Assembly: GCA_020638905.1 (NCBI GenBank)
Contig: JACKHP010000001.1
Location: 282,792-346,791, forward strand
DNA from: Planctomycetota bacterium
GTDB lineage: Bacteria > Planctomycetota > B15-G4
Direction of reading: 5' to 3'
DNA length: 64,000 bases
The notes below the pieces were generated by a model. The model was not told where the DNA came from. It worked only from the letters and a program-made list of their open reading frames with translations, and did not search any database. The translations under genes and the position numbers were made by a program. The first letter of the stretch is position 1, and the number at the start of each line of letters is the position of its first letter. Shown piece by piece: positions 18,839-35,610 of this stretch.

Positions 18839-19001
18839 GGCGCAAGACGGGGCCGTTTCCCCGCCCTCCCAGGTCGGGTCGAGGAACAGAGCTTAGGACA
18901 GTCGCGGGCGCGATACGACAGCGATCGGTCGAAGATGCGTGTCGCGCGAGTGTGCTGTGGCGTCGCCGGCGGCGCGTGCCTAACCTGGACGCTCGCGTCG
19001 C

Positions 19002-19526
19002 GTGGGGTGCCCGTCCCATGCGGGCGCGAGTCCCCCGGAGCGGCACACGTTGGGCGCGCGCGTTCCCCGTCCCCTGGTCTGGCTGTTCGCGGCGCTGCTG
19101 CTCGGCTTCGGCGTGTTCGCCGTGATGGCGTTCCGCGCCACGACGCTCGAGCAGGTCGACGCGGCGCTGGCCGCCGAGCGCCTGGCCGACGCGCGCGCCG
19201 AATTCGGGGGCCTGCGTCCGCTGCTCGAGCGCCGGCCCGACGGCAGGCTCGAGCGCGCGCCCGACGCGCCGGCCCACGGCGGCGCCGAGCCCGAGCGCAT
19301 GGTCGTGCTCTTCCACCGCGCGACGGACGGCGAGCTGCTGCGCATCGAGATCCCGTTCTGGTTCCTGCGCGTGAAGGGACCGGCGCTGCGCATGGTGCTG
19401 TCGGGCACCGACTTCGACGTCGAGCAGCTCGGCATCGCGCCGCGCGACCTGGCCGCGTTCGGCGCCTGTCCGCTGCTCGACGAGTCGCGCGCCGACGGCT
19501 CGACGCTGCTCGTCTGGACCGAGTGA
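19002..19526 (+). CDS. Hypothetical membrane-anchored protein
   Basis: 174-aa ORF with one TM helix (LVWLFAALLLGFGVFAVMAF). No family recognised, and the start is uncertain. Confidence 0.45.
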   Translation: MGCPSHAGASPPERHTLGARVPRPLVWLFAALLLGFGVFAVMAFRATTLEQVDAALAAERLADARAEFGGLRPLLERRPDGRLERAPDAPAHGGAEPERMVVLFHRATDGELLRIEIPFWFLRVKGPALRMVLSGTDFDVEQLGIAPRDLAAFGACPLLDESRADGSTLLVWTE

Positions 19527-26704: not shown

Positions 26705-27450
26705 CCGCGCGCGGGCTGTTCGCGCGAGCCGCCGAGATCCGGCGCGCGTCGGACAAGCCCGACGACTTCCTCTGGGCGAGGTACGCGACCCGTCCCTACG
26801 CCGCCCTGCTGCTCGCGGCCGTCGACTCCCCGCGCCTCACGCCGAACGCCCTGAGCATGGTGAGTCTGGTCGTCGGCCTGGTCGCCTGCGCCGCGTTCGC
26901 GTTCGCGCCCGGATACGCCGGACTCTGGTGCGCGTGGGCGCTGAGCCAGGCGTCCTACACCGTCGACTGCATGGACGGCATGCTCGCCCGCTGGCAAGGC
27001 CTCGCGTCGCCGTGCGGCACCGCCCTCGACTTCCTGTGCGACGCGATCAAGCAGGTGGCGCTCTTCCCCGCCGTCGCGTATCGCGTGTGGGCCGAGGCCG
27101 GGCATCCCGTGGGACCGTGGGACGGATGGGCGCTGTGGGTCGCGATCGTCGCCGGTCCGGTGGTGGCCGCGGGGCTGATGACGACGACGTTCCTGCGGAG
27201 TCCCGAGGTCACCGGTGAGAGCGAGCGGGCGCACCGCGATGCGCACGGAAAGGACGTGAAGGGCCGCGTGATGGCGGGGGTCGCGTTCCTGATGAACTAC
27301 CCGAGCTGGGTGATCGCCCCCGTCGCGCTGGACCGGATGGACGTGTTCGTGGGGGTGAGCGTCGGGTTGTATGGGGTGTATGCCGTGTGGGCGTTGGCGC
27401 GGGTTTGGGGGAAGGTGTGTGGGGTGGGGGGTGAGGTGGGTGGGGAGTGA
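26701..27450 (+). CDS. CDP-alcohol phosphatidyltransferase family membrane protein
   Basis: ATGA overlap with the upstream gene. Motif DCMDGMLARWQGLASPCGTALDFLCD (D-G-x2-A-R-x8-G-x3-D-x3-D) plus TM helices. Confidence 0.8.
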   Translation: MTARGLFARAAEIRRASDKPDDFLWARYATRPYAALLLAAVDSPRLTPNALSMVSLVVGLVACAAFAFAPGYAGLWCAWALSQASYTVDCMDGMLARWQGLASPCGTALDFLCDAIKQVALFPAVAYRVWAEAGHPVGPWDGWALWVAIVAGPVVAAGLMTTTFLRSPEVTGESERAHRDAHGKDVKGRVMAGVAFLMNYPSWVIAPVALDRMDVFVGVSVGLYGVYAVWALARVWGKVCGVGGEVGGE

Positions 27451-27800
27451 ATGAGGGTTCTGGATTGGGGATCTGGCGGGGCTGTGATCTGCCGCGTAAC
27501 GTGCCGGTCGATGGCGTGATAGGCGGGTCTGTCTATCGTGCCGAGCGGAGTGCTTGCAGGTCGGTCGAACGGGCGTAGACTCTGGCCGCGACTGGGCTTG
27601 CGGAGAAGTGGCGATGAACCGAGTTGGCGTGTTATCGGGGTGGGCAGGCGCTTCGTTTGTTCGCGCGGTGGTCACAAACGCAGTTCTGTCGAATAGGTGT
27701 TGAACGAAGCCGCTGCGCGGCAGGGGTGACGCGCTGAGTCGAGCGACACAAGAGCGGAGATTGCAGTATCCCGAGGGATCCCACTCTAGGAGGATCCCAG

Positions 27801-28640
27801 ATGACGATGCTGCGCGAGCGCATGCAGCAGGACATGCGCATCCGGAACCTGTCGCCGAGGACGCAGGCGTGTTACCTCGGTCACGTCGAGCAGTTCGGCA
27901 AGCACTTCGGCCGATCGCCGGAGACGCTCGATCTCGAGCACATTCGCGCCTACCAGGTGCATCTCGTCGAGGTGAAGAAGGCGTCGTGGTCGGCGTTCAA
28001 CCAGGCGGTGTGCGCGTTGCGCTTCTTGTACGGTGTGACGCTCGGAAAGGACTGGGCGATCGAGCACATCCCGCACGCGAAGCGGGAGAAGAAGCTCCCG
28101 TCGGTACTGTCGAGGGACGAAGTGCGGCGCGTGCTCGACGCGGTGAGGAACGCCAGACAGCGCGTGTTGTTGACGACGATCTACGCCGCGGGGCTGCGGC
28201 TGTCGGAGGCGCTCTCGCTGAAGGTGGGCGACGTGGACAGCGAGCGTATGGTGCTGCACGTGCACCGCGGGAAGGGTGGCAAGGATCGGATGGTGCCGTT
28301 GTCGCCGGTGCTGCTCGAGCACCTGCGGGAGTACTGGAGGTGCCACCGTCCGAGGACGTACCTCTTCCCGGGGGCGAAGCCCGACAAGCCGCTCAACCCG
28401 ACGTCGGTCCAGAAGGCGATGCAGACCGCGCGGCTGCGGGCGGGCATCCGCAAGCCGGCGTCGGTCCACACGCTGCGGCACTGCTACGCGACGCACCTGC
28501 TCGAGTCGGGGACGGACCTGCGTCGCATCCAGACCTGGCTCGGGCACACGAGCCTGAACACGACGGCCGTCTACCTCCACGTATGCAGCGCGACGACCGG
28601 CGGTCGCAGTCCACTCGATTCCCTGACGACGACCGGCTGA
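27801..28640 (+). CDS. Tyrosine-type site-specific recombinase (IS91-associated; IntI-like but lacking the IntI-specific insertion)
   Basis: 279 aa. R..HxxR..Y catalytic pattern (AGLRLSE, HTLRHCYATHLL, LGHTSLNTTAVYLHV). Confidence 0.85.
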   Translation: MTMLRERMQQDMRIRNLSPRTQACYLGHVEQFGKHFGRSPETLDLEHIRAYQVHLVEVKKASWSAFNQAVCALRFLYGVTLGKDWAIEHIPHAKREKKLPSVLSRDEVRRVLDAVRNARQRVLLTTIYAAGLRLSEALSLKVGDVDSERMVLHVHRGKGGKDRMVPLSPVLLEHLREYWRCHRPRTYLFPGAKPDKPLNPTSVQKAMQTARLRAGIRKPASVHTLRHCYATHLLESGTDLRRIQTWLGHTSLNTTAVYLHVCSATTGGRSPLDSLTTTG

Positions 28641-28655
28641 CGCGGTCGTCCTGCG

Positions 28656-29840
28656 ATGGGACGGCCATCCCTCGAGGTGGCCGACGTGATCGTCGCGCAC
28701 GCGGCCGGGCTGCTCGCGCGAGGCGGTGTCACGTCGGCGCGACGGCGCGTGCTCGTCGATCTCGCAGCGTGCCGCACGTCGGCGCTGGGCGGGCACGCCG
28801 ATGAGTGCCAGTCCTGCGGCCACGCGCGCGTGTCGTACAACTCATGTCGCAACCGGCACTGCCCGAAGTGCCAGGGGAGCCGGCGCGCGGCGTGGGTGGA
28901 GGCGCAGGAGGCGCGGCTCCTGCCCGTGCCGTACTTCCACGTCGTCTTCACGCTGCCGGCACAGATTGCCGAAATTGCGCTCCAGAACAAGCGCGAACTC
29001 TACGGTCTCCTGTTCCGCGCGTCGGCCGAGACGCTCCAGCAGGTGGCTCGCGATCCGAGGCACCTCGGCGGCGAGATCGGCTTCGTCTCGCTGCTGCACA
29101 CGTGGAGCCAGACGCTGCAGCACCATCCCCACGTGCATGTCATCGTGGCGGGCGGCGGCTTGTCGGCGGACGGCGCGCGCTGGGTCGCCTGTCGGCCAGG
29201 CTTCTTCCTGCCGGTGCGCGTGCTCGGTCGCGTCTTCCGCGGCAAGTTCCTGGCGGGACTGGAAGCGCTCCGTCGGCAAGGCCGACTGCGCTGGCAAGGC
29301 CGCCTCGAAGACCTGCGCGACGACCGAGCTTGGCGACAACGCCAGCGCGAGGCTCGACGACTCGAGTGGGTCGTGTACGCCAAGAGTCCCTTTGGCGGTG
29401 TCGACTGCGCTCTGCGTTACCTGGCGCGATACACACATCGCGTCGCGATCTCGAACGAGCGACTGCTCTCACTGCACGACGGCGTCGTCGCCTTCCGGTA
29501 TCGCGACTCGGCGCACGGCAACCGCGCGCGCACGATGCGACTCGATGCACAGGAATTCCTGCGCCGCTTCCTGCTGCACGTCCTGCCGAAGGGCTTCCCC
29601 AAGCTGCGCTCGTACGGCTTCCTCGCCAATCGGTCATGCAAACTCGACCGCTGCCGCGAACTGCTCGGCGTCGAAGCGGATCCCGGCGTCCGAGCCGACG
29701 AGTCGTCGGCTGCAGACGAAGTCGAGCGCCGCTGCCCGACCTGTGGAGGCCGCGAGATCGTCCGCAAGGACCTCCCGAAGCGATCCGAGGCGACCGAACA
29801 CCTTCGTGTCGCTCAGGCCAAGAGACTCGACACCTCATGA
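28656..29840 (+). CDS. IS91-family transposase (zinc-binding N-terminus, HUH, Y2)
   Basis: CxxC...CxxC zinc-ribbon motifs (CQSCGH, CRNRHCPKC), HUH-like HHPHVHVIV, and a paired-tyrosine segment RYLARYTHR. Confidence 0.85.
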   Translation: MGRPSLEVADVIVAHAAGLLARGGVTSARRRVLVDLAACRTSALGGHADECQSCGHARVSYNSCRNRHCPKCQGSRRAAWVEAQEARLLPVPYFHVVFTLPAQIAEIALQNKRELYGLLFRASAETLQQVARDPRHLGGEIGFVSLLHTWSQTLQHHPHVHVIVAGGGLSADGARWVACRPGFFLPVRVLGRVFRGKFLAGLEALRRQGRLRWQGRLEDLRDDRAWRQRQREARRLEWVVYAKSPFGGVDCALRYLARYTHRVAISNERLLSLHDGVVAFRYRDSAHGNRARTMRLDAQEFLRRFLLHVLPKGFPKLRSYGFLANRSCKLDRCRELLGVEADPGVRADESSAADEVERRCPTCGGREIVRKDLPKRSEATEHLRVAQAKRLDTS

Positions 29841-30108
29841 TCACCAAGGCCCGCGTCGACACCTCGGTCAGCCCGCGTCCAGCGTCTTTGCGTATGGACC
29901 TCGGAAGGAGTCCGCCCCGACGATTTTCGGTCGGGTCGCAGGATCGAGTCCAGGCATACGATCCGCGCGACGCGGCGTCGGCGGCCGGCGCCAGAACACG
30001 ATCTCCTGGCCCGGACGCACCGGAACGGCGCGGCCTCCTCGAGTCCGGCCCTCGCTGCTGGGGCGCCCGCCCGATACGATGCCCATAGCCGGCCGCGAGC
30101 CGACATTC

Positions 30109-30206
30109 GTTCAACACGCGCTTTCCCGAATGGCCTCGAGCTCGAGACGTCCGGCAACTCGGGGTCGTCGTGCGAGGCCACTCGGGAAAGCGCGCTACCG
30201 TTAGGC
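30109..30206 (+). other. attC-like recombination site (98 bp)
   Basis: GTTCAAC at 30109-30115 and GTTAGGC at 30200-30206. The arms 30118-30138 and 30173-30193 are complementary at 20 of 21 positions. The next ORF starts 8 nt after the core site. Confidence 0.7.
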
Positions 30207-30213
30207 GAGTTCG

Positions 30214-31032
30214 ATGACATCACTCGTTGCCTACTGCGATGAGAGTGGTCAGCGTGACTACGGCACTGGCACGGATCGCCACTTCGTTGTCGCCGGCGTG
30301 GTTGCCAACGCTACGGAGGCCTCGCAGCTTGAAGACGAGTTACGAGGCTTGAAGCGTGCCTTCTGGGGTAACCCAGACATCGAGCTCAAGTCAAACTGGG
30401 TGCGCATCCCGTCGGCCCGGAGGAAGAACTACACCGACAAGCACGGAATCCAGCAGAAGCAAATCGAGTCGCTGCTTGCCGCCGTCTATCCCTGGCTCGA
30501 GAACGCGCCGATTCGACTCCTCGCCGCCGTTGTTGACAAACAGCAAATGGAAGCCAGATACAAGGAGCCGCACTACTCTGGCACTGTGGCATACACCGTC
30601 TTTCTGCAGCGCCTGCAGAAGTACGCTGCGAAGGTGAACGCTACGGCGAACGTCGTCTTCGACGACCCCGCAGGCAAATCGCCTGGCGGGTTTGACTGGC
30701 GAGACCTTCTGCTGAGGCTTCATGCGAAACTCCTCAAGCACGGGTGTCCATACACGAGGACCACGTTCGATCGCATTGGTACGCTTACATTCACAGACTC
30801 CACGGCTAGTCCATTCGTGCAGATCGCTGATCAGGTGTCGTACAACGTCTTCCGCCAGTTCCGGGACCACGGCGACGCGTGGGAGGACGACTCGCTCAAG
30901 AACCTACCGATGTACAAATACTTCCAGCTCATGATCGACATGTTCGATCAGGGCCCTAGCCGACAGTTCGCCGGGTTTGGAGTAACGAAATGGCCGATCG
31001 ACAAGAAGGTGCAATGGGTCGTCACAGGCTGA
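30214..31032 (+). CDS. DUF3800-family protein (cassette-borne)
   Basis: 272 aa. The N-terminal VAYCDESGQ motif and overall pattern match my recollection of DUF3800. A/T-richer codon usage than the host genes. Confidence 0.7.
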   Translation: MTSLVAYCDESGQRDYGTGTDRHFVVAGVVANATEASQLEDELRGLKRAFWGNPDIELKSNWVRIPSARRKNYTDKHGIQQKQIESLLAAVYPWLENAPIRLLAAVVDKQQMEARYKEPHYSGTVAYTVFLQRLQKYAAKVNATANVVFDDPAGKSPGGFDWRDLLLRLHAKLLKHGCPYTRTTFDRIGTLTFTDSTASPFVQIADQVSYNVFRQFRDHGDAWEDDSLKNLPMYKYFQLMIDMFDQGPSRQFAGFGVTKWPIDKKVQWVVTG

Positions 31033-31035
31033 ATC

Positions 31036-31102
31036 GCCTAACACGGCCTTGCATCGGACGGTCCACTTCGCGGCCCGCCGGTGAACGCCAGACCCGTTAG
31101 GG
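31036..31102 (+). other. attC-like recombination site (67 bp)
   Basis: GCCTAAC at 31036-31042 and GTTAGGG at 31096-31102 pair over 6 bp. The inner imperfect stem has unpaired bases on the 5' arm. It begins 4 nt after the upstream stop and ends 8 nt before the next ATG. Confidence 0.55.
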
Positions 31103-31109
31103 TAATGAA

Positions 31110-31373
31110 ATGACCAATCAGGACGTACAACCTGCAAGTCTACGTTTCGACGAATCAGAAAGCTTCGCGGATAATTGTGAATCGTTCCTCGTGCGCCTCG
31201 AAGAAGTAGACGCAGAGATGGCCACCATTCTGCGCGGCAATTGGGATGCACTGGTCGCGATCGTCCGCGAGGGAGAAAGAGATTCGAAGGCGCGCGGCGA
31301 ACTCAATGCCAAGGTCGCTTCGGCGCTGGACGCTCTTGTTGCCAAGCCGGCTGAGCCTAAAGGCGGTGCATGA
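31110..31373 (+). CDS. Small acidic protein (hypothetical), translationally coupled to the downstream ATPase
   Basis: 87-aa ORF rich in Asp/Glu. Its stop overlaps the next start (ATGA at 31370-31373). Confidence 0.55.
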   Translation: MTNQDVQPASLRFDESESFADNCESFLVRLEEVDAEMATILRGNWDALVAIVREGERDSKARGELNAKVASALDALVAKPAEPKGGA

Positions 31374-33871
31374 TGCCGCGATACTACCTCACACGACTCG
31401 CCGTTGAGGGGTTCCGCGGCGTCAATAACGAGAACGATCCCCTCGATATCCGCTTCCGACCGGATGCCGTCAACTCCGTGTTTGCCGTCAATGGCATCGG
31501 AAAAAGTTCCATATTCGAAGCGCTGTGCTACGCAATCCACGGGGCCATCCCAAAGCTCCAGTTACTTCAGGCGCAGGAACATCCACAGGACTACTATTGC
31601 AACCGGTTCCACTCAAAGAACACCGCCTCCATTCTCATGGAGTTCCAGCCGGATGACGGCGCCGCCCCCGTTGCCGTCCAGGTTGAGCGCGACGAGGTCG
31701 GCAACCGAACGGTAACCAGCCCGAGCGGACACGCCGATCCCGAAGGGTTCCTCGCGACGCTCAAGGAGGCGTTCGCGCTTCTCGATTACAGGACGTTCGC
31801 CCGGTTCATCGAGGAATCCCCCTTGGAACGAGGGCGTACGTTTTCAGCTCTGCTGGGCCTCGCGGAATACTCCGATTGCCGCCAGGCGCTACAGGCAGCC
31901 TCGGATTCCCGGGCCCTCAATACGGACCTTGAGATCAAGGTTCTGGCCACGGAGATTGGCGCTGCGCGAAAAGCGGCGCAGCAGGCACTTGTCACCCTCA
32001 GGTCGAGCTACGAGAACGTCACGGGCAAGCCTATGGAAGACATTGGCACGCTTGATGAATGTGCCGCCGAAGTCTCCACCGCTTTGGGCAACGTGGAACT
32101 CCTGAAGCCCCATTTCACCGGCAAGACCTTGAACGAAATCGACTTCCATAAGATGAAGACGGCGATCAAGACGGCCGAAGGGGGAGAGAAGCGCCGCGAG
32201 CTGGAGAAGACCATCGACTCCATCGCGGCCCTTGAAGCGCTCGCCGTGCACGATTTTCGCGCCATAGCGGCCGATCAACGGAACATCGGTGAGCTGATCG
32301 ACGAGCGCGATAAATTGCTTGCCTCGACCCGCGGCGACCTTTTCAAGCGCTTGTACGAGTCCGCCAGGGAAGTGATTACGAAGGGCGTCTGGACGGAGGA
32401 CGAGAAGTGTCCCTTGTGCGAAAGTGACCTTTCGTCATCGATAAGCGGACACGTGACTGCGCAATTAGCCCAGTACGCCGGTGCGGCAGACAAGATCACT
32501 GAGATCAGGGATACGTGGCTGGCTTCCGCGTGGAAGAAATGCCTTTCGGCCCATGAAGCGGCGGCGCCGCTGGCCGTGGAGCCGGAAAAGCGGCAATTGT
32601 CAGCACTGGATACGAAATTTACGTCTGGCGACATCTCCAAGGACCAGTTGGCCAGCGCAGTAAAGTGGACTTCAGACCTCACGGGAAAAGTCGCCGGGAC
32701 TCGCAAGGCCGCCCAGGACCGCAAAGAAGCGCTCGAGAAGGAACTGCCCCAGTCACTTGTCCAGCTCACGGAGCAGGTTGAGTATGGGCGGCAGTTCAAA
32801 GACGCGCTGGAGCTCTACCGGGATAACCGGAAGGATGAAGCCGCGCAGCAGGCGCGCCGCGATATCCGTGAGAGATGGAAGACGTTCATTTCAATAGCCA
32901 CGACGGTCTTCGCCGATGCCGAGGCAGCTTTGTCGAAGGCCAGAATCAAGGGCATAGATGCGGAGTACAAGTCGATGTTCCGCGAGATCATGCAGGTCGG
33001 TGACGTGGTCCCCAACCTGCGCCGCGCGGATGACAGGGAAGATCTTCACGTCCAGCTCAGCGACTTTCACGGACAGCACAGGTTGTCCGCGCGGGCACTC
33101 TTGTCGGAAAGCTACCGCAACGCGCTTGCAATTTCCGTTTTCCTCGCAGCTGCCCTCAAACATTCCGGCGCGCCGCGTTTCGTCGTGCTGGATGACGTGA
33201 CATCCAGCTTCGATGCCGGGCACCAGTATTTCCTGATGGAGCTGATACGCACGAAACTTCAGCAGCCGCAGCACGCCAAAGGCCTCCAGTTCATCATCCT
33301 GAGCCACGACGGCTTGCTGGAGAAGTATTTCGACCGGCTGGGTGGCGAGACCGGGTGGCATCACAACAAGCTTCAAGGTTCGTCGCCGATGGGCGCGATC
33401 TTACATCAGGCGCAAGGGGCGGATCGCCTCAAGACGACGATTGCGTCGCTTCTCTCCGCCGGTCAGGTGTCGCAGGCAGAGCCGCTCATTCGTCAGTACC
33501 TGGAGTACAAGCTCCAGCAGATCATTCGCAAGGTCGATATCCCGGTGCCGATCGATTTCGCGATCAAGGACACGTCCCGCATGGTCCGCAATTGTCTCGA
33601 CGCCATCACCTCCGCGATCGAACTGCACAAGAAGGCCGGAACGCTCGTGCTCGATGCGCAGCAGGTTCAGGATACCGACACGTCGCATGTCCCCGCGATT
33701 GTCGGTAACTGGGTCAGCCACTATGAGACAGGTTCGGGCAGCAACCTTTCCGCTCCCGCCCTTGGCGGCGTAATCAGGTCTATCGACGCGCTTGCAGAAT
33801 GCTTCAGGTACGATGACACGTCCGGCGGCTCTACTGTGCGCAGATGGTACAAGTCGCTTTCAAAACGGTAG
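31370..33871 (+). CDS. Rad50/SMC-like ABC ATPase with coiled-coil zinc hook and PrrC/RloC-like C-terminal domain (putative anticodon-nuclease-type defence protein)
   Basis: Walker A AVNGIGKSS (residues 39-47). CPLC at residues 347-350 (nt 32408-32419) sits mid-way through a long helical insert. Signature-like LSESYRNAL, Walker B RFVVLDDV and H-loop ILSHD follow. The C-terminal tail has R708-x3-E712 and NWVSH784. Confidence 0.6.
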   Translation: MMPRYYLTRLAVEGFRGVNNENDPLDIRFRPDAVNSVFAVNGIGKSSIFEALCYAIHGAIPKLQLLQAQEHPQDYYCNRFHSKNTASILMEFQPDDGAAPVAVQVERDEVGNRTVTSPSGHADPEGFLATLKEAFALLDYRTFARFIEESPLERGRTFSALLGLAEYSDCRQALQAASDSRALNTDLEIKVLATEIGAARKAAQQALVTLRSSYENVTGKPMEDIGTLDECAAEVSTALGNVELLKPHFTGKTLNEIDFHKMKTAIKTAEGGEKRRELEKTIDSIAALEALAVHDFRAIAADQRNIGELIDERDKLLASTRGDLFKRLYESAREVITKGVWTEDEKCPLCESDLSSSISGHVTAQLAQYAGAADKITEIRDTWLASAWKKCLSAHEAAAPLAVEPEKRQLSALDTKFTSGDISKDQLASAVKWTSDLTGKVAGTRKAAQDRKEALEKELPQSLVQLTEQVEYGRQFKDALELYRDNRKDEAAQQARRDIRERWKTFISIATTVFADAEAALSKARIKGIDAEYKSMFREIMQVGDVVPNLRRADDREDLHVQLSDFHGQHRLSARALLSESYRNALAISVFLAAALKHSGAPRFVVLDDVTSSFDAGHQYFLMELIRTKLQQPQHAKGLQFIILSHDGLLEKYFDRLGGETGWHHNKLQGSSPMGAILHQAQGADRLKTTIASLLSAGQVSQAEPLIRQYLEYKLQQIIRKVDIPVPIDFAIKDTSRMVRNCLDAITSAIELHKKAGTLVLDAQQVQDTDTSHVPAIVGNWVSHYETGSGSNLSAPALGGVIRSIDALAECFRYDDTSGGSTVRRWYKSLSKR

Positions 33872-33901
33872 CTGTTCCACGCAGATGATGAGGGGACACA
33901 A

Positions 33902-33961
33902 GCCTAACAACAGCATGCAGCGGCCGGCGCTGCGCGCCGCCGCTGATGCTGAGCGTTAGCG
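33902..33961 (+). other. attC-like recombination site (60 bp)
   Basis: GCCTAAC at 33902-33908 and GTTAGCG at 33955-33961. An internal stem of about 18 bp spans 33911-33930 and 33934-33951, with two unpaired bases (G33917, C33925) on the 5' arm and a 3-nt loop. Confidence 0.75.
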
Positions 33962-33980
33962 GGGCAGGGAGGGCGAGACC

Positions 33981-34604
33981 ATGAAGGGCCAGAAGCGTAC
34001 GAGCAATAGGGCCACAGATGGCTGGCACGACCCGGATCCGTTCACGATCGTTGTGGGTACGATCGGCGCGCTAGGTGGTGTTGCGGCTGTTGCTGCAGCG
34101 GCAGGGCAGTTGGGTGAGTCGCGCAGACGGAAGCGGAGTCGCAGGGTATATGACCAATTGAGTGGTCTGCTCACCGACATCGAGATGCTCACTCACGAAC
34201 TTGATGCGACACATCGTAAGCTAGAGGCCATACTTGGTTCAGCAAGGCGGTCGGCAAACGACGTCGCAGATCGACACCACAGGGCGGAGTTCGGCGGATA
34301 CAGTCCTGAGTTTCGATTGCCCGACCTCCGTCGCTTCGAATACCTTACCCGAGACGCTGGGCGGGTTTGCGGTGAGCTTCAACACAAGAGCTGTCGGCTA
34401 ATCCGCAAGCTCACCCAGGCCGAAGTCGGTTTTGGCGAGGGGCCTTATCGCTTGCTCACACAATTGAGGCGCGAGCTCAACGCTCTCCTTGAACATCGCG
34501 AGTCATACGACGAGGCGGTGTCTCGATTGTATCGTGCCATCGAGCTGGGCCGGCGAGCGATCAGAGCAATTAAGGATGATCTGTTTGGGGCCGATCTTCG
34601 ATGA
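33981..34604 (+). CDS. Hypothetical single-pass membrane protein with helical cytoplasmic domain (cassette-borne)
   Basis: 207-aa ORF with a basic N-terminus, a TM helix (FTIVVGTIGALGGVAAVAAAAG), an RRRKRSRR tract, then predicted helices. No family recognised. Confidence 0.5.
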   Translation: MKGQKRTSNRATDGWHDPDPFTIVVGTIGALGGVAAVAAAAGQLGESRRRKRSRRVYDQLSGLLTDIEMLTHELDATHRKLEAILGSARRSANDVADRHHRAEFGGYSPEFRLPDLRRFEYLTRDAGRVCGELQHKSCRLIRKLTQAEVGFGEGPYRLLTQLRRELNALLEHRESYDEAVSRLYRAIELGRRAIRAIKDDLFGADLR

Positions 34605-34956
34605 TGCTCAGATGCAAGATCGAAGGGCCCGCTAGCACGTGTAAGGCACCGCGTTGTCAAGGGCGGATCTCCTCTGGCCACGACTGAGTGACGTGGATGA
34701 TGTCGAGAGTACGTGAGTGTCCAGCCGTGCCTGTCTCGGGTTGCCTTGTCGGTGCGGAGCGTCGCCCTGCACCAAAAACGTGTCGAGGATCGACCACCAG
34801 GCCTCGTTGGAGTGCGGCCGGTGGCGCTGTCGCAATCGACAAGCCATCCGTTGCAGGGTGGACTACGGGCTGCGAGCGCCCCGGCAGCTGATCGAGAACC
34901 GGATGACGCCCGACCGTCACGTGAGTAGACTCACCGCTCCTCCGGAGCGCCCCGCG

Positions 34957-35610
34957 ATGGACGCCGACCCGCACCCTCTCGCCACCCCTCGCTCCACCGA
35001 CCCCGCGCCCGCGCACGCCGGCCCCTTCGCGACCCTCGAACTTCCCGCGCCGTCGGCCCCGCTGCCGGCACACTTCATGAAGCGCTGGGGGTCCCTCTCG
35101 CTCGCGATGCAGGGGGACGAGTTCGATCGCTTCGTCCCCACGCTGCAGCGCCGGGCGGACGAGATCGACGCGGGGCTCGTGCGCGCGCTGCTGGGCGAGG
35201 TCAACTGGCGGCCGCGGCTCGTCGGGGCGTACCTGGCGGCGGTGAAGGGGCTGTGCGAGGTCGACGAGCTCGTCGCGCGGCTGCTGCTGCGCAGCGACCT
35301 GTGCTTCGCGGGGAAGGGCTACTGCCTCGCGCTGGCGTGCTTCGACACCGAGGTCGCGCGAAAAGCGCTCGACGACTACCTCGGCCACTACCTGTCCCGG
35401 CCCGACCTGCACTTCGACCAGGGCGACGCGATGGCCGCGCTCGGCCACCTCGACGCGCGGCACGGGACGCACGCGCGCGACGCGCACCTGCCGGCGTGGG
35501 AGGCGTTCGTGGCCGACAAGCCGCGCTGGCGGCTGCGGCGCTTCGACGAGCAGCTCGCGGCGCGCCTGGCCGCGGTCGAGCGCGCCCGCGGCGCGACGTC
35601 CGAGGTCTGA
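34957..35610 (+). CDS. Hypothetical protein
   Basis: Internal start MDADPHPL in ORF 34717..35610. Host-like high GC. No motif recognised. Confidence 0.45.
   Translation: MDADPHPLATPRSTDPAPAHAGPFATLELPAPSAPLPAHFMKRWGSLSLAMQGDEFDRFVPTLQRRADEIDAGLVRALLGEVNWRPRLVGAYLAAVKGLCEVDELVARLLLRSDLCFAGKGYCLALACFDTEVARKALDDYLGHYLSRPDLHFDQGDAMAALGHLDARHGTHARDAHLPAWEAFVADKPRWRLRRFDEQLAARLAAVERARGATSEV

What the first reader, a model, noticed from the sequence alone, without database searches (positions are those of the whole stretch)
30109..34604. Integron-type gene-cassette array (three attC-like sites) with no canonical integron integrase
Three sites have the attC architecture: an RYYYAAC box, an imperfect palindrome, and a GTTRRRY box. 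Site 1 is 30109-30206 (GTTCAAC ... GTTAGGC); its 21-nt arms at 30118-30138 and 30173-30193 pair at 20 of 21 positions. Site 2 is 31036-31102 (GCCTAAC ... GTTAGGG, 67 bp). Site 3 is 33902-33961 (GCCTAAC ... GTTAGCG, 60 bp), with an ~18-bp stem and two unpaired bases, G33917 and C33925. In sites 2 and 3 the unpaired bases sit on the RYYYAAC-side arm, where canonical attC sites carry their extrahelical bases. All three sites share one orientation. Sites 2 and 3 each lie 4-30 nt after an ORF stop; site 1 has no ORF upstream of it. In all three cases the next ORF starts only 8-20 nt after the GTT core, which is the compact promoterless layout of integron cassettes. No IntI is present, so this looks like a CALIN (a cluster of attC sites lacking an integrase) or the remnant of a chromosomal integron. 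Integron cassettes have recently been recognised as reservoirs of anti-phage systems, which makes the uncharacterised cargo here worth attention.
Basis: partly seen in the sequence, partly recalled or inferred. Interest (0 to 1): 0.85.

Follow-up and report, generated by a model that had tools for sequence, protein, structure and literature searches.

The report
Integron cassette remnant beside IS91 element
Two of the three reported sites are genuine integron attC recombination sites bounding mobile gene cassettes that lack an integron integrase, while the first site is the end hairpin of an IS91-type insertion sequence; this is an ordinary kind of element with unstudied, possibly anti-phage, cargo.

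Summary

- **Sites 2 and 3 are real attC sites.** Site 2 is 31036-31102 and site 3 is 33902-33961. A covariance model built only from 16 bona fide attC sites scores them at 23.6 bits (E=1e-4) and 31.7 bits (E=4e-7). The next best hit in the window scores 13.6 bits.
- **Their geometry is canonical.** Their bottom strands carry single-base bulges at the positions (12 and 19/20) seen in most of the real attCs folded.
- **The cassettes are mobile.** The same cassettes occur in other metagenomic arrays with different neighbours, and the sequences diverge right after the R' GTTA.
- **Site 1 (30109-30206) is not an attC.** It is the oriIS end of a 2.5-kb IS91-family element (27692-30199). This element encodes an IntI-like tyrosine recombinase that lacks the IntI insertion, plus a Y2 transposase.
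- **The junction is explained by the IS91 target rule.** The element abuts GTTA, the first four bases of the array's proximal core site GTTAGGC.
- **A third attC, after the 207-aa ORF, has decayed.**

Verdict: a small CALIN-type cassette array in a Planctomycetota MAG, interrupted at its proximal end by an IS91-type element. The cargo is a DUF3800 protein, an 87-aa protein paired with a Rad50/LmuB-like ATPase, and a 207-aa membrane protein. These are plausible but untested defence genes.

The parts
27692..30199 (+). IS91-family insertion sequence of the integrase + Y2-transposase subgroup, with terIS on the left and oriIS on the right
   Evidence: Logan unitig L001 is identical to window 27692-30202 and breaks at both ends. 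Unitig L083 starts 30 nt (k-1) before its right end, which marks an assembly-graph branch. The ends are homologous to two-copy elements in L042 and L061.
27697..27708 (+). Left subterminal inverted repeat GTGTTGAACGAA (terIS side); its partner lies at 30105-30116
   Evidence: the left-end motif TGAACGAAsCCGCT.GCGCGG is shared with L042
27801..28640 (+). Tyrosine recombinase, 279 aa, of the IntI-like ('integron-like') subgroup but without the IntI insertion; a passenger of the IS91 element
   Evidence: Pfam Phage_int_SAM_4 + Phage_integrase. TIGR02249 scores 211 bits, below the 265-bit cut-off, in two stretches. Identity to IntI1 is 33.7%, with about 43 aa missing. An alignment shows the ~31-aa and ~10-aa IntI insertions are absent. 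More than 7700 homologues were found; most of the 120 listed come from contigs under ~5 kb. It is paired with an IS91 transposase in 42 of 80 genome loci.
28656..29840 (+). IS91-family HUH Y2 transposase, 394 aa
   Evidence: Pfam Y2_Tnp 4e-61 and Zn_Tnp_IS91 1e-31; NCBIfam transpos_IS91 409 bits against a 125-bit cut-off
30105..30199 (+). oriIS end: right inverted repeat (contains the 'GTTCAAC' box), a 24-bp subterminal palindrome (30117-30195) and the terminal CTACC.
   Evidence: Fold energy -33 kcal/mol with no bulges at positions 12 or 19-20. The same layout, a box then a long hairpin then CTAnC|GTTN, occurs in L004, L008, L009, L013, L016 and L018. The attC model does not hit it.
30200..30206 (+). 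GTTAGGC. GTTA is the IS91 target tetranucleotide next to oriIS, and the 7-mer as a whole is the proximal integron core site (R') that opens cassette 1.
   Evidence: The IS91 family leaves no target-site duplication, and its target tetranucleotide lies next to oriIS (PMC13181058). Unitig L001 ends after GTT. Relatives end CTAnC|GTTT/GTTA/GTTG with no RRRY after GTT. DUF3800 cassettes elsewhere have GTTAGAC 17-26 nt before the ATG.
30214..31032 (+). Cassette 1 gene: DUF3800 protein, 272 aa (predicted RNase H2-like fold family)
   Evidence: Pfam DUF3800 4.7e-16. Homologues at 61-68% identity lie in cassette arrays L121/L122 and L124/L125. DUF3800 is the associated protein or domain of type VII retrons (PMC7736814).
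31036..31102 (+). attC of cassette 1 (site 2), 67 bp, GCCTAAC...GTTAGGG
   Evidence: CM R1 scores 23.6 bits, E=1.3e-4, over the full model. The bottom strand folds at -16.4 kcal/mol against -9.7 for the top strand. Bulges lie at positions 12 (C) and 19 (T).
31110..31373 (+). Cassette 2, gene 1: 87-aa protein with no family match
   Evidence: Always paired with the ATPase gene in the metagenome loci whose contig reaches that position; no Pfam or NCBIfam hit
31370..33871 (+). Cassette 2, gene 2: 833-aa Rad50/SMC-type ABC ATPase with a CPLC hook and a conserved C-terminal domain of unknown function
   Evidence: Pfam SMC_N, AAA_23 and AAA_13, with only AAA_23 above its cut-off. PADLOC LmuB 2e-21. 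Weak PDB matches to Rad50/SMC heads. C347-P-L-C350 is invariant in 13 homologues.
33902..33961 (+). attC of cassette 2 (site 3), 60 bp, GCCTAAC...GTTAGCG
   Evidence: CM R1 scores 31.7 bits, E=3.8e-7. The bottom-strand fold is -25.1 kcal/mol, z=-4.9. Bulges lie at positions 12 (C) and 20 (G). The same attC follows the orthologous gene in L096 and L097, with divergence right after GTTA.
33981..34604 (+). Cassette 3 gene: 207-aa protein with an N-terminal hydrophobic stretch that I read as a membrane helix, no family match
   Evidence: Homologues at 78-80% identity are cassettes in arrays L126/L127/L128, L129 and L130, each with its own attC
34630..34659 (+). Decayed remnant of the cassette 3 attC (CGCTAGCACG...GTTGTCA); the array ends here
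   Evidence: Homologous cassettes carry CGCTAAC-ACGGCATTGCAGCGG...GTTAGG after the stop codon. The window matches only the first ~11 nt. The CM gives no hit here.

Best explanation
The region is a short integron-type cassette array without an integron integrase (a CALIN). An IS91-family rolling-circle insertion sequence has inserted at its proximal end.

Shown:
- Two intact attC sites (sites 2 and 3) and one decayed attC bound three co-oriented cassettes: DUF3800; an 87-aa protein plus a Rad50/LmuB-like ATPase; and a 207-aa membrane protein.
- Each cassette is also found as a cassette in other arrays.
- 'Site 1' is the oriIS end of the IS, made of an inverted repeat and a subterminal palindrome.
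- The IS carries its own IntI-related recombinase, which lacks the IntI insertion.

Inferred:
- The IS landed there because this IS91 subgroup inserts with oriIS next to a 5'-GTTN tetranucleotide. The integron core site GTTAGGC offers exactly that, so the IS end coincides with the cassette boundary.
- The cassettes could still be excised and captured in trans by an IntI acting on the folded bottom strands of sites 2 and 3.
- In this position the cassettes have no recognisable Pc promoter. If they are expressed, it would be by read-through from the co-oriented int-tnpA genes or from an outward promoter in the IS end.
For: attC identity:
- Model R1 was built only from 12 class 1 attCs and 4 attCs of an Acidobacteriota integron.
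- It gives 31.7 and 23.6 bits for sites 3 and 2, against 13.6 bits for the best other window hit.
- Over 1.05 Mb of integrase loci it hits only the two loci whose integrases carry the IntI insertions (L072, L082) at E<=0.1.
- It finds real attCs that were not in the training set at 41-52 bits.
- 13 of 16 real attCs have a 3'-arm-only bulge at position 12-13, and 10 of 16 have a second at 18-20. Sites 2 and 3 match both; site 1 matches neither.

Cassette mobility:
- The p87+ATPase pair with the same attC occurs in L096 and L097, followed by different DNA right after GTTA. In L094 and L096 it is preceded by unrelated attCs that end at GTTAGGC.
- DUF3800 and p207 homologues lie in arrays elsewhere.

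IS identity:
- Domain hits.
- Unitig L001 equals window 27692-30202, with graph branches at both ends.
- End homology with two-copy elements.
- A 12-nt inverted repeat at the two ends.

IS91 rule:
- No target-site duplication, and the target tetranucleotide lies next to oriIS, downstream of tnpA (PMC13181058).

No IntI:
- There is only one tyrosine recombinase in the window, and it lacks the IntI insertions.
- This agrees with the published 'integron-like' subgroup of IS91-linked recombinases (10.1101/542381).
Against: - The DNA left of the IS (27451-27691) holds no recognisable remainder of an attC or attI (and by eye). A simple insertion into an intact site therefore does not fully explain the present structure. 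A later deletion, an insertion of the array at a secondary site, or a mis-join of the MAG contig across the repeated IS must be assumed.
- The R' boxes of sites 2 and 3 deviate from GTTRRRY.
- My attC model is home-made with short calibration. It missed one long real attC (dfrA7, 133 bp) under default filters.
- The official IntegronFinder model was not run.
- Recombination activity and expression were not tested.
Confidence: 0.8

Rival explanations
1. One reading: all three sites, including site 1, are attC sites of one CALIN, and site 1 is the attC of a lost upstream cassette.
For: Site 1 has RYYYAAC and GTTRRRY boxes 98 bp apart around a strong hairpin. It has the same orientation as sites 2 and 3, and an ORF starts 8 nt after it.
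Against: - Site 1 has no bulges at positions 12 or 19-20, and its R boxes pair only through AAC/GTT.
- The attC model does not hit it at E<=10.
- Its left box is the IS inverted repeat.
- The whole structure travels with the IS in an independent unitig.
- The same structure is conserved at the right end of IS relatives that have no cassettes.
Confidence: 0.05
2. The int+IS91 element is itself an integron-like platform. Its IntI-related recombinase captured the cassettes at the GTT next to the attC-like oriIS hairpin, which would act as an attI-like site.
For: - The recombinase belongs to the closest known sister group of IntI.
- The array starts exactly at the IS end.
- The IS end has a box-hairpin-GTT layout.
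- No attC or attI remainder lies on the other side of the IS.
Against: - None of the other int+IS91 loci has an attC hit at E<=0.1 in the flanks held, up to 10 kb.
- The recombinase lacks the insertion that, by established structural work recalled here, lets IntI read extrahelical bases.
- The junction is fully explained by the IS91 target rule.
- In relatives, GTT is followed by non-RRRY bases.
Confidence: 0.05
3. The IS and the cassettes moved here together as one unit, by IS91 one-ended or read-through rolling-circle transposition from a donor integron. The cassettes would then be IS91 cargo, as with ISCR elements.
For: The whole stretch 27451-34957 has lower GC (58-69%) than the ~73-75% flanks. 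The IS and the array are contiguous. The left flank shows no trace of the target site.
Against: - One-ended transposition starts at oriIS and runs through tnpA past terIS. It therefore mobilises DNA on the terIS (left) side, not DNA beyond oriIS (my recollection of the IS91/ISCR literature; end layout and one-ended transposition per PMC13181058).
- The IS (68% GC) and the cassettes (59% GC) differ in composition.
- In the source metagenome the IS branches away from the cassettes right after GTT.
Confidence: 0.08
4. Sites 2 and 3 are generic intergenic palindromes (REP-like repeats or terminators), not recombination sites.
For: They are GC-rich hairpins placed after stop codons.
Against: - No other copies occur in the 64 kb.
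- No T-tract follows them.
- The folding is strand-asymmetric.
- The bulge geometry is canonical.
- The same sites bound the same genes in other arrays, with breakpoints right after the R' GTTA.
Confidence: 0.01

Closest known systems
CALIN (cluster of attC sites lacking an integron integrase; Cury et al. 2016, IntegronFinder)
   Same: At least two attC sites lie less than 4 kb apart on one strand. The cassettes are promoterless and co-oriented. No IntI is nearby. The cargo is of unknown function. An IS sits next to the array.
   Different: It is very small, with two intact attCs and one decayed. The proximal boundary is an IS91 oriIS end rather than an attC or attI. An IntI-like but non-IntI recombinase lies 1.5 kb away and could mislead annotation.
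IS91-family elements that carry a tyrosine recombinase upstream of tnpA ('integron-like' TR subgroup of Smyshlyaev et al.)
   Same: Gene order int-tnpA. A Y2 HUH transposase with the Zn-binding domain. A subterminal palindrome at oriIS. A GTTN tetranucleotide next to oriIS. The recombinase lacks the IntI insertion. The element is multi-copy.
   Different: This copy abuts an integron core site. No other copy examined does.
ISCR1 in complex class 1 integrons
   Same: An IS91-like rolling-circle element is physically joined to an integron, with genes lying just beyond its oriIS. ISCR1 was seen in that position in L087 and L093.
   Different: ISCR1 has no integrase. It sits after the 3'-conserved segment rather than at a cassette boundary, and the genes beyond it are not cassettes.
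IS1111-attC elements and group IIC-attC introns (recalled from the literature, not examined here)
   Same: Mobile elements that insert into integron recombination sites.
   Different: They have different transposition chemistry and insert inside attC. Here the insertion lies 5' of the GTT of a core site, and the preference is probably just the 4-nt IS91 target.
Lamassu (LmuA/LmuB/LmuC) anti-phage systems
   Same: The 833-aa protein matches PADLOC LmuB profiles (2e-21). It is an SMC/Rad50-type ATPase in a mobile two-gene module.
   Different: No LmuA-type effector gene is present. The partner is only 87 aa, and there is an extra conserved C-terminal domain. It is not a demonstrated member.

Membership tests
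integron attC site (sites 2 and 3) | Inverse core and core boxes R'' (RYYYAAC) and R' (GTTRRRY) that pair with each other | tested here: met
   Both sites have GCCTAAC. R' is GTTAGGG (site 2) and GTTAGCG (site 3). The boxes pair over 6-7 bp. The last 1-2 bases deviate from RRRY, as also seen in real attCs harvested here, such as GTTATGC and GTTAACC.
integron attC site (sites 2 and 3) | Bottom-strand hairpin with an unpaired central spacer and extrahelical bases on the R''/L'' arm | tested here: met
   3'-arm-only bulges lie at positions 12 and 19 (site 2) and 12 and 20 (site 3). In 16 real attCs the corresponding bulges lie at 12-13 (13 of 16) and 18-20 (10 of 16). For site 2 the bottom strand is 6.7 kcal/mol more stable than the top strand.
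integron attC site (sites 2 and 3) | Significant score with an attC covariance model | tested here: met
   Home-made model R1 gives 31.7 bits (E=3.8e-7) and 23.6 bits (E=1.3e-4) with full-length matches. The official IntegronFinder model was not available.
integron attC site (sites 2 and 3) | Bounds a mobile cassette: the same gene and attC in different arrays, with the breakpoint at G|TT | tested here: met
   Comparing the window with L094, L096 and L097 for cassette 2 shows divergence right after the R' GTTA on both sides. Arrays L121-L130 hold homologues of cassettes 1 and 3.
integron attC site (sites 2 and 3) | Recombined by IntI as a folded single strand | not testable with these tools
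   Needs a recombination assay.
integron attC site (site 1) | Extrahelical bases and a covariance-model score | tested here: not met
   Site 1 is a perfect 24-bp stem with no bulge at 12 or 19-20. R1 gives no hit at E<=10 with filters off. Its left box lies inside the IS inverted repeat.
complete integron | IntI: a tyrosine recombinase with the IntI-specific insertion, next to the array | tested here: not met
   The only tyrosine recombinase in the 64 kb scores below the TIGR02249 cut-off. It lacks the ~31-aa and ~10-aa insertions present in IntI1 and in the L072 and L082 IntIs. The rest of the 353-kb contig and of the genome was not available.
complete integron | attI site and Pc promoter upstream of the first cassette | tested here: inconclusive
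   The core GTTAGGC is present. The DNA that would precede it is the IS, and the left flank of the IS has no GYCTAAY-N4-6-GTT simple site. The sigma-70 consensus scan is at chance level.
CALIN | At least two attC sites clustered (<4 kb apart) and no intI nearby | tested here: met
   Two model-supported attCs lie 2.8 kb apart on the same strand, and there is no IntI in the window.
IS91 family insertion sequence | HUH Y2 transposase with the N-terminal Zn-binding domain | tested here: met
   Y2_Tnp 4e-61 and Zn_Tnp_IS91 1e-31; NF033538 409 bits against a 125-bit cut-off.
IS91 family insertion sequence | Defined ends with subterminal palindromes, no target duplication, and a target tetranucleotide next to oriIS | tested here: met
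   The ends are at 27692 and 30199-30202, from unitig breaks. There is an oriIS palindrome and an inverted repeat. No direct repeat is apparent at the two flanks by eye. GTTA abuts oriIS, as GTTT/GTTA/GTTG do in relatives. The rule comes from PMC13181058.
IS91 family insertion sequence | Transposition activity (multiple copies) | tested here: inconclusive
   Assembly-graph branches at both ends in two runs imply more than one context. There is no second copy in the window.
Lamassu defence system | LmuB SMC-like ATPase together with an LmuA effector | tested here: not met
   LmuB-like profile hit at 2e-21. No LmuA hit among the three neighbouring cassette proteins scanned. No conserved third gene in 17 loci.

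The most novel reading that the evidence does not exclude
The IS91-linked, IntI-related recombinase may use the attC-like oriIS end (box, hairpin, GTT) as an attI-like docking site and capture integron cassettes there. That would make int+IS91 elements a rolling-circle-mobilised integron platform and a living link between IS-borne recombinases and IntI. A less radical alternative that is also not excluded: the 87-aa protein plus Rad50/LmuB-like ATPase cassette is a new two-gene anti-phage system.
Probability: 0.05. Interest if true: 0.8.

Novelty: new member of a known kind. Interest (0 to 1): 0.35.

Why it matters
- **A trap for annotation.** The oriIS end of an IS91-type element mimics the attC layout of box, hairpin and GTT. 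The recombinase next to it looks like IntI in domain scans. Together these could produce false 'integron' calls.
- **A mechanistic point.** IS91-type elements with a GTTN target can land exactly on integron core sites and cut an array off from its platform. That is one concrete route to CALINs, which Cury et al. suspected when they noted the link between rearrangements and IS elements.
- **Three candidate defence cassettes.** The three cassettes recur in environmental arrays next to TIR-domain cassettes. They are reasonable candidates for the defence-gene screens now being run on integron cassettes (bioRxiv 10.1101/2024.07.02.601719 and 10.1101/2024.07.02.601686). None of this is a new kind of system.

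Tried and rejected
- **Strict regex.** RYYYAAC...GTTRRRY found site 1 and a pair at 18978-19055 but missed sites 2 and 3. The 18978 pair is not supported by the attC model.
- **MAFFT of full-length attCs** mis-aligned the 60-bp sites. I replaced it with trimmed bottom strands, 26 + 28 nt.
- **Rfam.** Only a spurious snaR-A hit on the IS hairpin, 28 bits against a gathering threshold of 98. No hit at E<=1 to any other Rfam family, including the DUF3800 motifs described by Weinberg et al..
- **Promoter and terminator scan** was at chance level.
- **Flank searches.** I looked for an attC, attI or intI remnant left of the IS, and for homology of both spacers to any fetched locus. Nothing was found.
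- **Exact-protein look-ups** of the 833-aa and 207-aa proteins found no contigs.
- **Structure prediction.** The single-sequence model of its C-terminal domain had pLDDT 41.7, which is unusable, so no fold search was run.
- **Profile search against PDB** gave only weak Rad50/SMC head matches.
- **Conserved third gene** next to the p87+ATPase pair: none found.
- **PADLOC on DUF3800 and p207** gave only marginal hits.
Full report
**Setting**

The window has about 73-75% GC. A stretch from about 27451 to 34957 drops to 58-69%. On the + strand this stretch holds, in order:
- a 279-aa tyrosine recombinase (27801-28640)
- an IS91-family Y2 transposase (28656-29840)
- a DUF3800 gene (30214-31032)
- site 2
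- an 87-aa ORF overlapping the start of an 833-aa SMC-like ATPase gene (31110-33871)
- site 3
- a 207-aa ORF (33981-34604)

Exact protein look-ups place the window in a Planctomycetota MAG on a 353-kb contig. NCBI proteins MCB9896584.1-MCB9896589.1 are annotated there only as recombinase, IS91 transposase, DUF3800, hypothetical, AAA ATPase and hypothetical.

**Checking the observation**

Site 1's arms pair at 20 of 21 positions. G33917 and C33925 are the unpaired bases of site 3. The distances to stop and start codons are as stated.

The pattern is far from chance. The + strand of the window holds only 12 TAAC and 9 GTTA. A YTAAC...GTTAR pair 50-150 bp apart occurs only at sites 2 and 3.

Two details were off:
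- The R' boxes of sites 2 and 3 (GTTAGGG, GTTAGCG) do not strictly fit GTTRRRY.
- 'No ORF upstream of site 1' overlooks the transposase and recombinase genes.

**Are they attC sites?**

I harvested bona fide attC sites from class 1 integrons on plasmids. These were the attCs of aac(6')-Ib, aadA2, aadA13, gcuF, ereA2, aac(6')-IIc, dfrA7, dfrA12, dfrA14, dfrA27, arr-3 and blaVIM-1. I added attCs from a chromosomal integron that turned up in an Acidobacteriota MAG (L072).

I folded their bottom strands as DNA, with the AAC/GTT pairs enforced. Thirteen of the 16 show a single-base bulge on the 3' arm only at position 12-13, counted back from the A that follows GTT in R''. Ten of the 16 show a second bulge at 18-20.
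- Site 2 has such bulges at positions 12 (C) and 19 (T).
- Site 3 has them at positions 12 (C) and 20 (G).
- Site 1 has none. It is an uninterrupted 24-bp stem whose R boxes pair only through AAC/GTT.

I then built a covariance model (R1) from the 16 real sites. Each was trimmed to its lower stem, giving 18 base pairs with strong covariation.
- With filters off, R1 finds site 3 at 31.7 bits (E=3.8e-7) and site 2 at 23.6 bits (E=1.3e-4).
- The next window hit scores 13.6 bits.
- Site 1 is absent even at E<=10.
- The model recovers real attCs at 28-59 bits, including sites not used for training.
- In 1.05 Mb of unrelated integrase loci, at E<=0.1, it hits only the two loci whose integrases carry the IntI insertions (L072, L082).

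**Are they cassettes?**

A metagenome scan with the 833-aa protein returned 26 loci at 59-93% identity. The 87-aa gene is present beside it in the loci whose contig reaches that position.

In L096 and L097 the stop codon is followed by the same attC as site 3 (GCCTAACAACAGCATGCAGCGG...GCTGATGCTG..GTTA). The three sequences part company right after the R' GTTA:
- window: GTTAGCG|gggcag
- L096: GTTATGC|cgacag
- L097: GTTAGGC|gtttag

Upstream, the window, L094 and L096 share T(A/G)(A/G)TGAAATGAC directly after an R' box, but are preceded by unrelated attCs. This is the signature of one cassette sitting in different arrays.

DUF3800 homologues (61-68% identity) lie in arrays next to a TIR-domain cassette and others. 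They have GTTAGAC 17-26 nt before the ATG and attC-like sites after the stop.

Homologues of the 207-aa protein (78-80% identity) lie in arrays, including one with roughly twenty co-oriented small ORFs on a 907-kb scaffold. Each has its own attC, CGCTAAC...GTTAGG. The window keeps only the first ~11 nt of that attC (34630-34640) and then diverges. The third attC has therefore decayed, and the array ends there.

**What site 1 is**

The recombinase protein is found on a 2511-bp Logan unitig that is identical to window 27692-30202. A second run gives a unitig that starts at the same base. The DUF3800 unitig from the same run starts exactly 30 nt (k-1) before the first unitig ends. These are assembly-graph branch points. 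The 2.5-kb unit is thus a repeat that meets different DNA at 27691 and at 30203.

The int+tnpA pair recurs in 42 of 80 genome loci across many phyla. Two loci with two copies each (L042, L061) define the element ends.
- The left ends share TGAACGAAsCCGCT.GCGCGG with window 27700 onward.
- In many of these relatives (L004, L008, L009, L013, L016, L018) the right end shows a TTC(A/T)A(C)-type box, a long palindrome, and then CTAnC followed by GTTT, GTTA or GTTG.
- In the window the 'R'' box' GTTCAAC lies inside a 12-nt inverted repeat (GTGTTGAACGAA) shared by the two ends.

A 2026 paper on IS91 summarises the family rules. There is no target duplication. oriIS, downstream of tnpA, carries subterminal palindromes. 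The target tetranucleotide (CTTG, GTTC or GTCC) lies immediately next to oriIS (PMC13181058).

Read this way:
- The IS is 27692-30199.
- The site 1 stem is the oriIS palindrome.
- GTTA (30200-30203) is the target.

Relatives do not have RRRY after GTT. The full GTTAGGC here is therefore best read as an integron core site that the IS used as its GTTN target. This explains why the IS end coincides with the start of cassette 1.

**The recombinase**

Its best NCBIfam match is the integron-integrase model, but at 211 bits against a 265-bit cut-off and split in two stretches. It is 33.7% identical to IntI1 over a span about 43 residues shorter. An alignment with IntI1 and the L072 and L082 IntIs shows that it lacks their ~31-aa and ~10-aa insertions, as do all IS91-linked relatives aligned.

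This matches Smyshlyaev et al., who place IS91-borne recombinases in an 'integron-like' subgroup as the closest homologues of IntI without its insertion (10.1101/542381). It is the only tyrosine recombinase in the window. The array therefore meets the CALIN definition of Cury et al. (PMC4889954).

**What remains unexplained**

If the IS simply inserted 5' of GTTA, the DNA to its left should be the rest of an attC or attI. It is not (and by eye).

Possible reasons:
- an IS-mediated adjacent deletion
- original insertion of the cassettes at a secondary site
- a mis-join of the MAG contig across the repeated IS

I could not discriminate among these.

Mobilisation of the cassettes by one-ended IS91 transposition is unlikely, because by my reading of the IS91 model that process carries DNA from the terIS side, not from beyond oriIS. 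The more exciting idea is that the IS recombinase captured the cassettes at the attC-like oriIS end. It is not excluded, but it has no support: no other int+IS91 locus has an attC hit in the flanks held.

**Cargo**

- DUF3800 is a predicted RNase H2-like domain. It serves as the associated protein or domain in type VII retrons (PMC7736814). It is accompanied by many different structured RNA motifs (PMC5737381), none of which is detected here.
- The 833-aa protein is a Rad50/SMC-type ABC ATPase. It matches Pfam SMC_N, AAA_23 and AAA_13, with only AAA_23 above its curated cut-off, and PADLOC LmuB at 2e-21. It has an invariant CPLC hook and a conserved C-terminal ~180 aa with no detectable relatives.
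- With its 87-aa partner it forms a self-contained two-gene module that has no other conserved neighbour.
- It is not a Lamassu system, because no LmuA is present.
- The 207-aa protein has an N-terminal hydrophobic stretch that I read as a membrane helix, and no family match.
- A defence role for these cassettes is plausible, given recent work on integron cassettes, but it is untested.

**Verdict**

This is a real but ordinary element: a small CALIN-type cassette array in a Planctomycetota genome. One of the three claimed attC sites is reassigned to the end of an IS91-type insertion sequence.

Interest is moderate to low. The useful points are the annotation trap, the IS91-at-core-site junction, and three candidate defence cassettes.

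Noticed in passing
window 27395-27450: An extremely G-rich tract (GGGGTGTGTGGGGTGGGGGGTGAGGTGGGTGGGGAG) at the 3' end of the CDP-alcohol phosphatidyltransferase ORF. GC skew is +0.28 over 27000-27499. It may be able to form a G-quadruplex, and it lies just before the low-GC island.
   Followed up: no
window 18978-19055: A 78-bp GCCTAAC...GTTGGGC pair that satisfies the strict RYYYAAC/GTTRRRY regex. It folds weakly and is not hit by the attC model at E<=10. It is probably chance.
   Followed up: partly
window 27692 and 30202 (unitigs L001, L002, L083): Logan unitigs from SRR12358675 and SRR12358676 break exactly at the IS ends. The IS is therefore multi-copy in the source community, and the join of the 353-kb MAG contig across it could be chimeric.
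   Followed up: partly
L072:9788-20726 (Acidobacteriota MAG CAWBLW010000003.1): A complete chromosomal integron whose intI is co-oriented with the cassettes. An attI-like GTCTAATTCGCGTTAGGC lies about 360 nt after the intI stop. At least six 98-101-bp attCs (GCCTAAC...GTTAGGC) include a duplicated pair of cassettes.
   Followed up: partly
L126:4000-14100 (ENA scaffold ZHEN20-1_SAMN07748057_METAG-scaffold_4, 907 kb): A large array of roughly twenty small co-oriented ORFs with several attC hits. It includes CAP12-PCTIR TIR, faint AbiGi-like and acetyltransferase cassettes next to the homologue of the 207-aa protein. It looks like a sedentary chromosomal integron rich in defence-like cargo.
   Followed up: partly
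L121:131-1994 and L122: A DUF3800 cassette is immediately followed by a TIR_2-domain cassette, each bounded by attC-like sites. This co-occurrence hints at a defence role for this DUF3800 clade.
   Followed up: no
L009:3883-3979 and L052:9198-9293: The oriIS ends of other int+IS91 elements also satisfy a loose attC regex of box, hairpin and GTT. This is a systematic look-alike that could generate false attC calls.
   Followed up: partly
window 34717-35610: The gene flanking the array on the right encodes a DUF6000 protein (Pfam 6e-39). Its function is unknown and its GC3 is 0.91, typical of the host.
   Followed up: no
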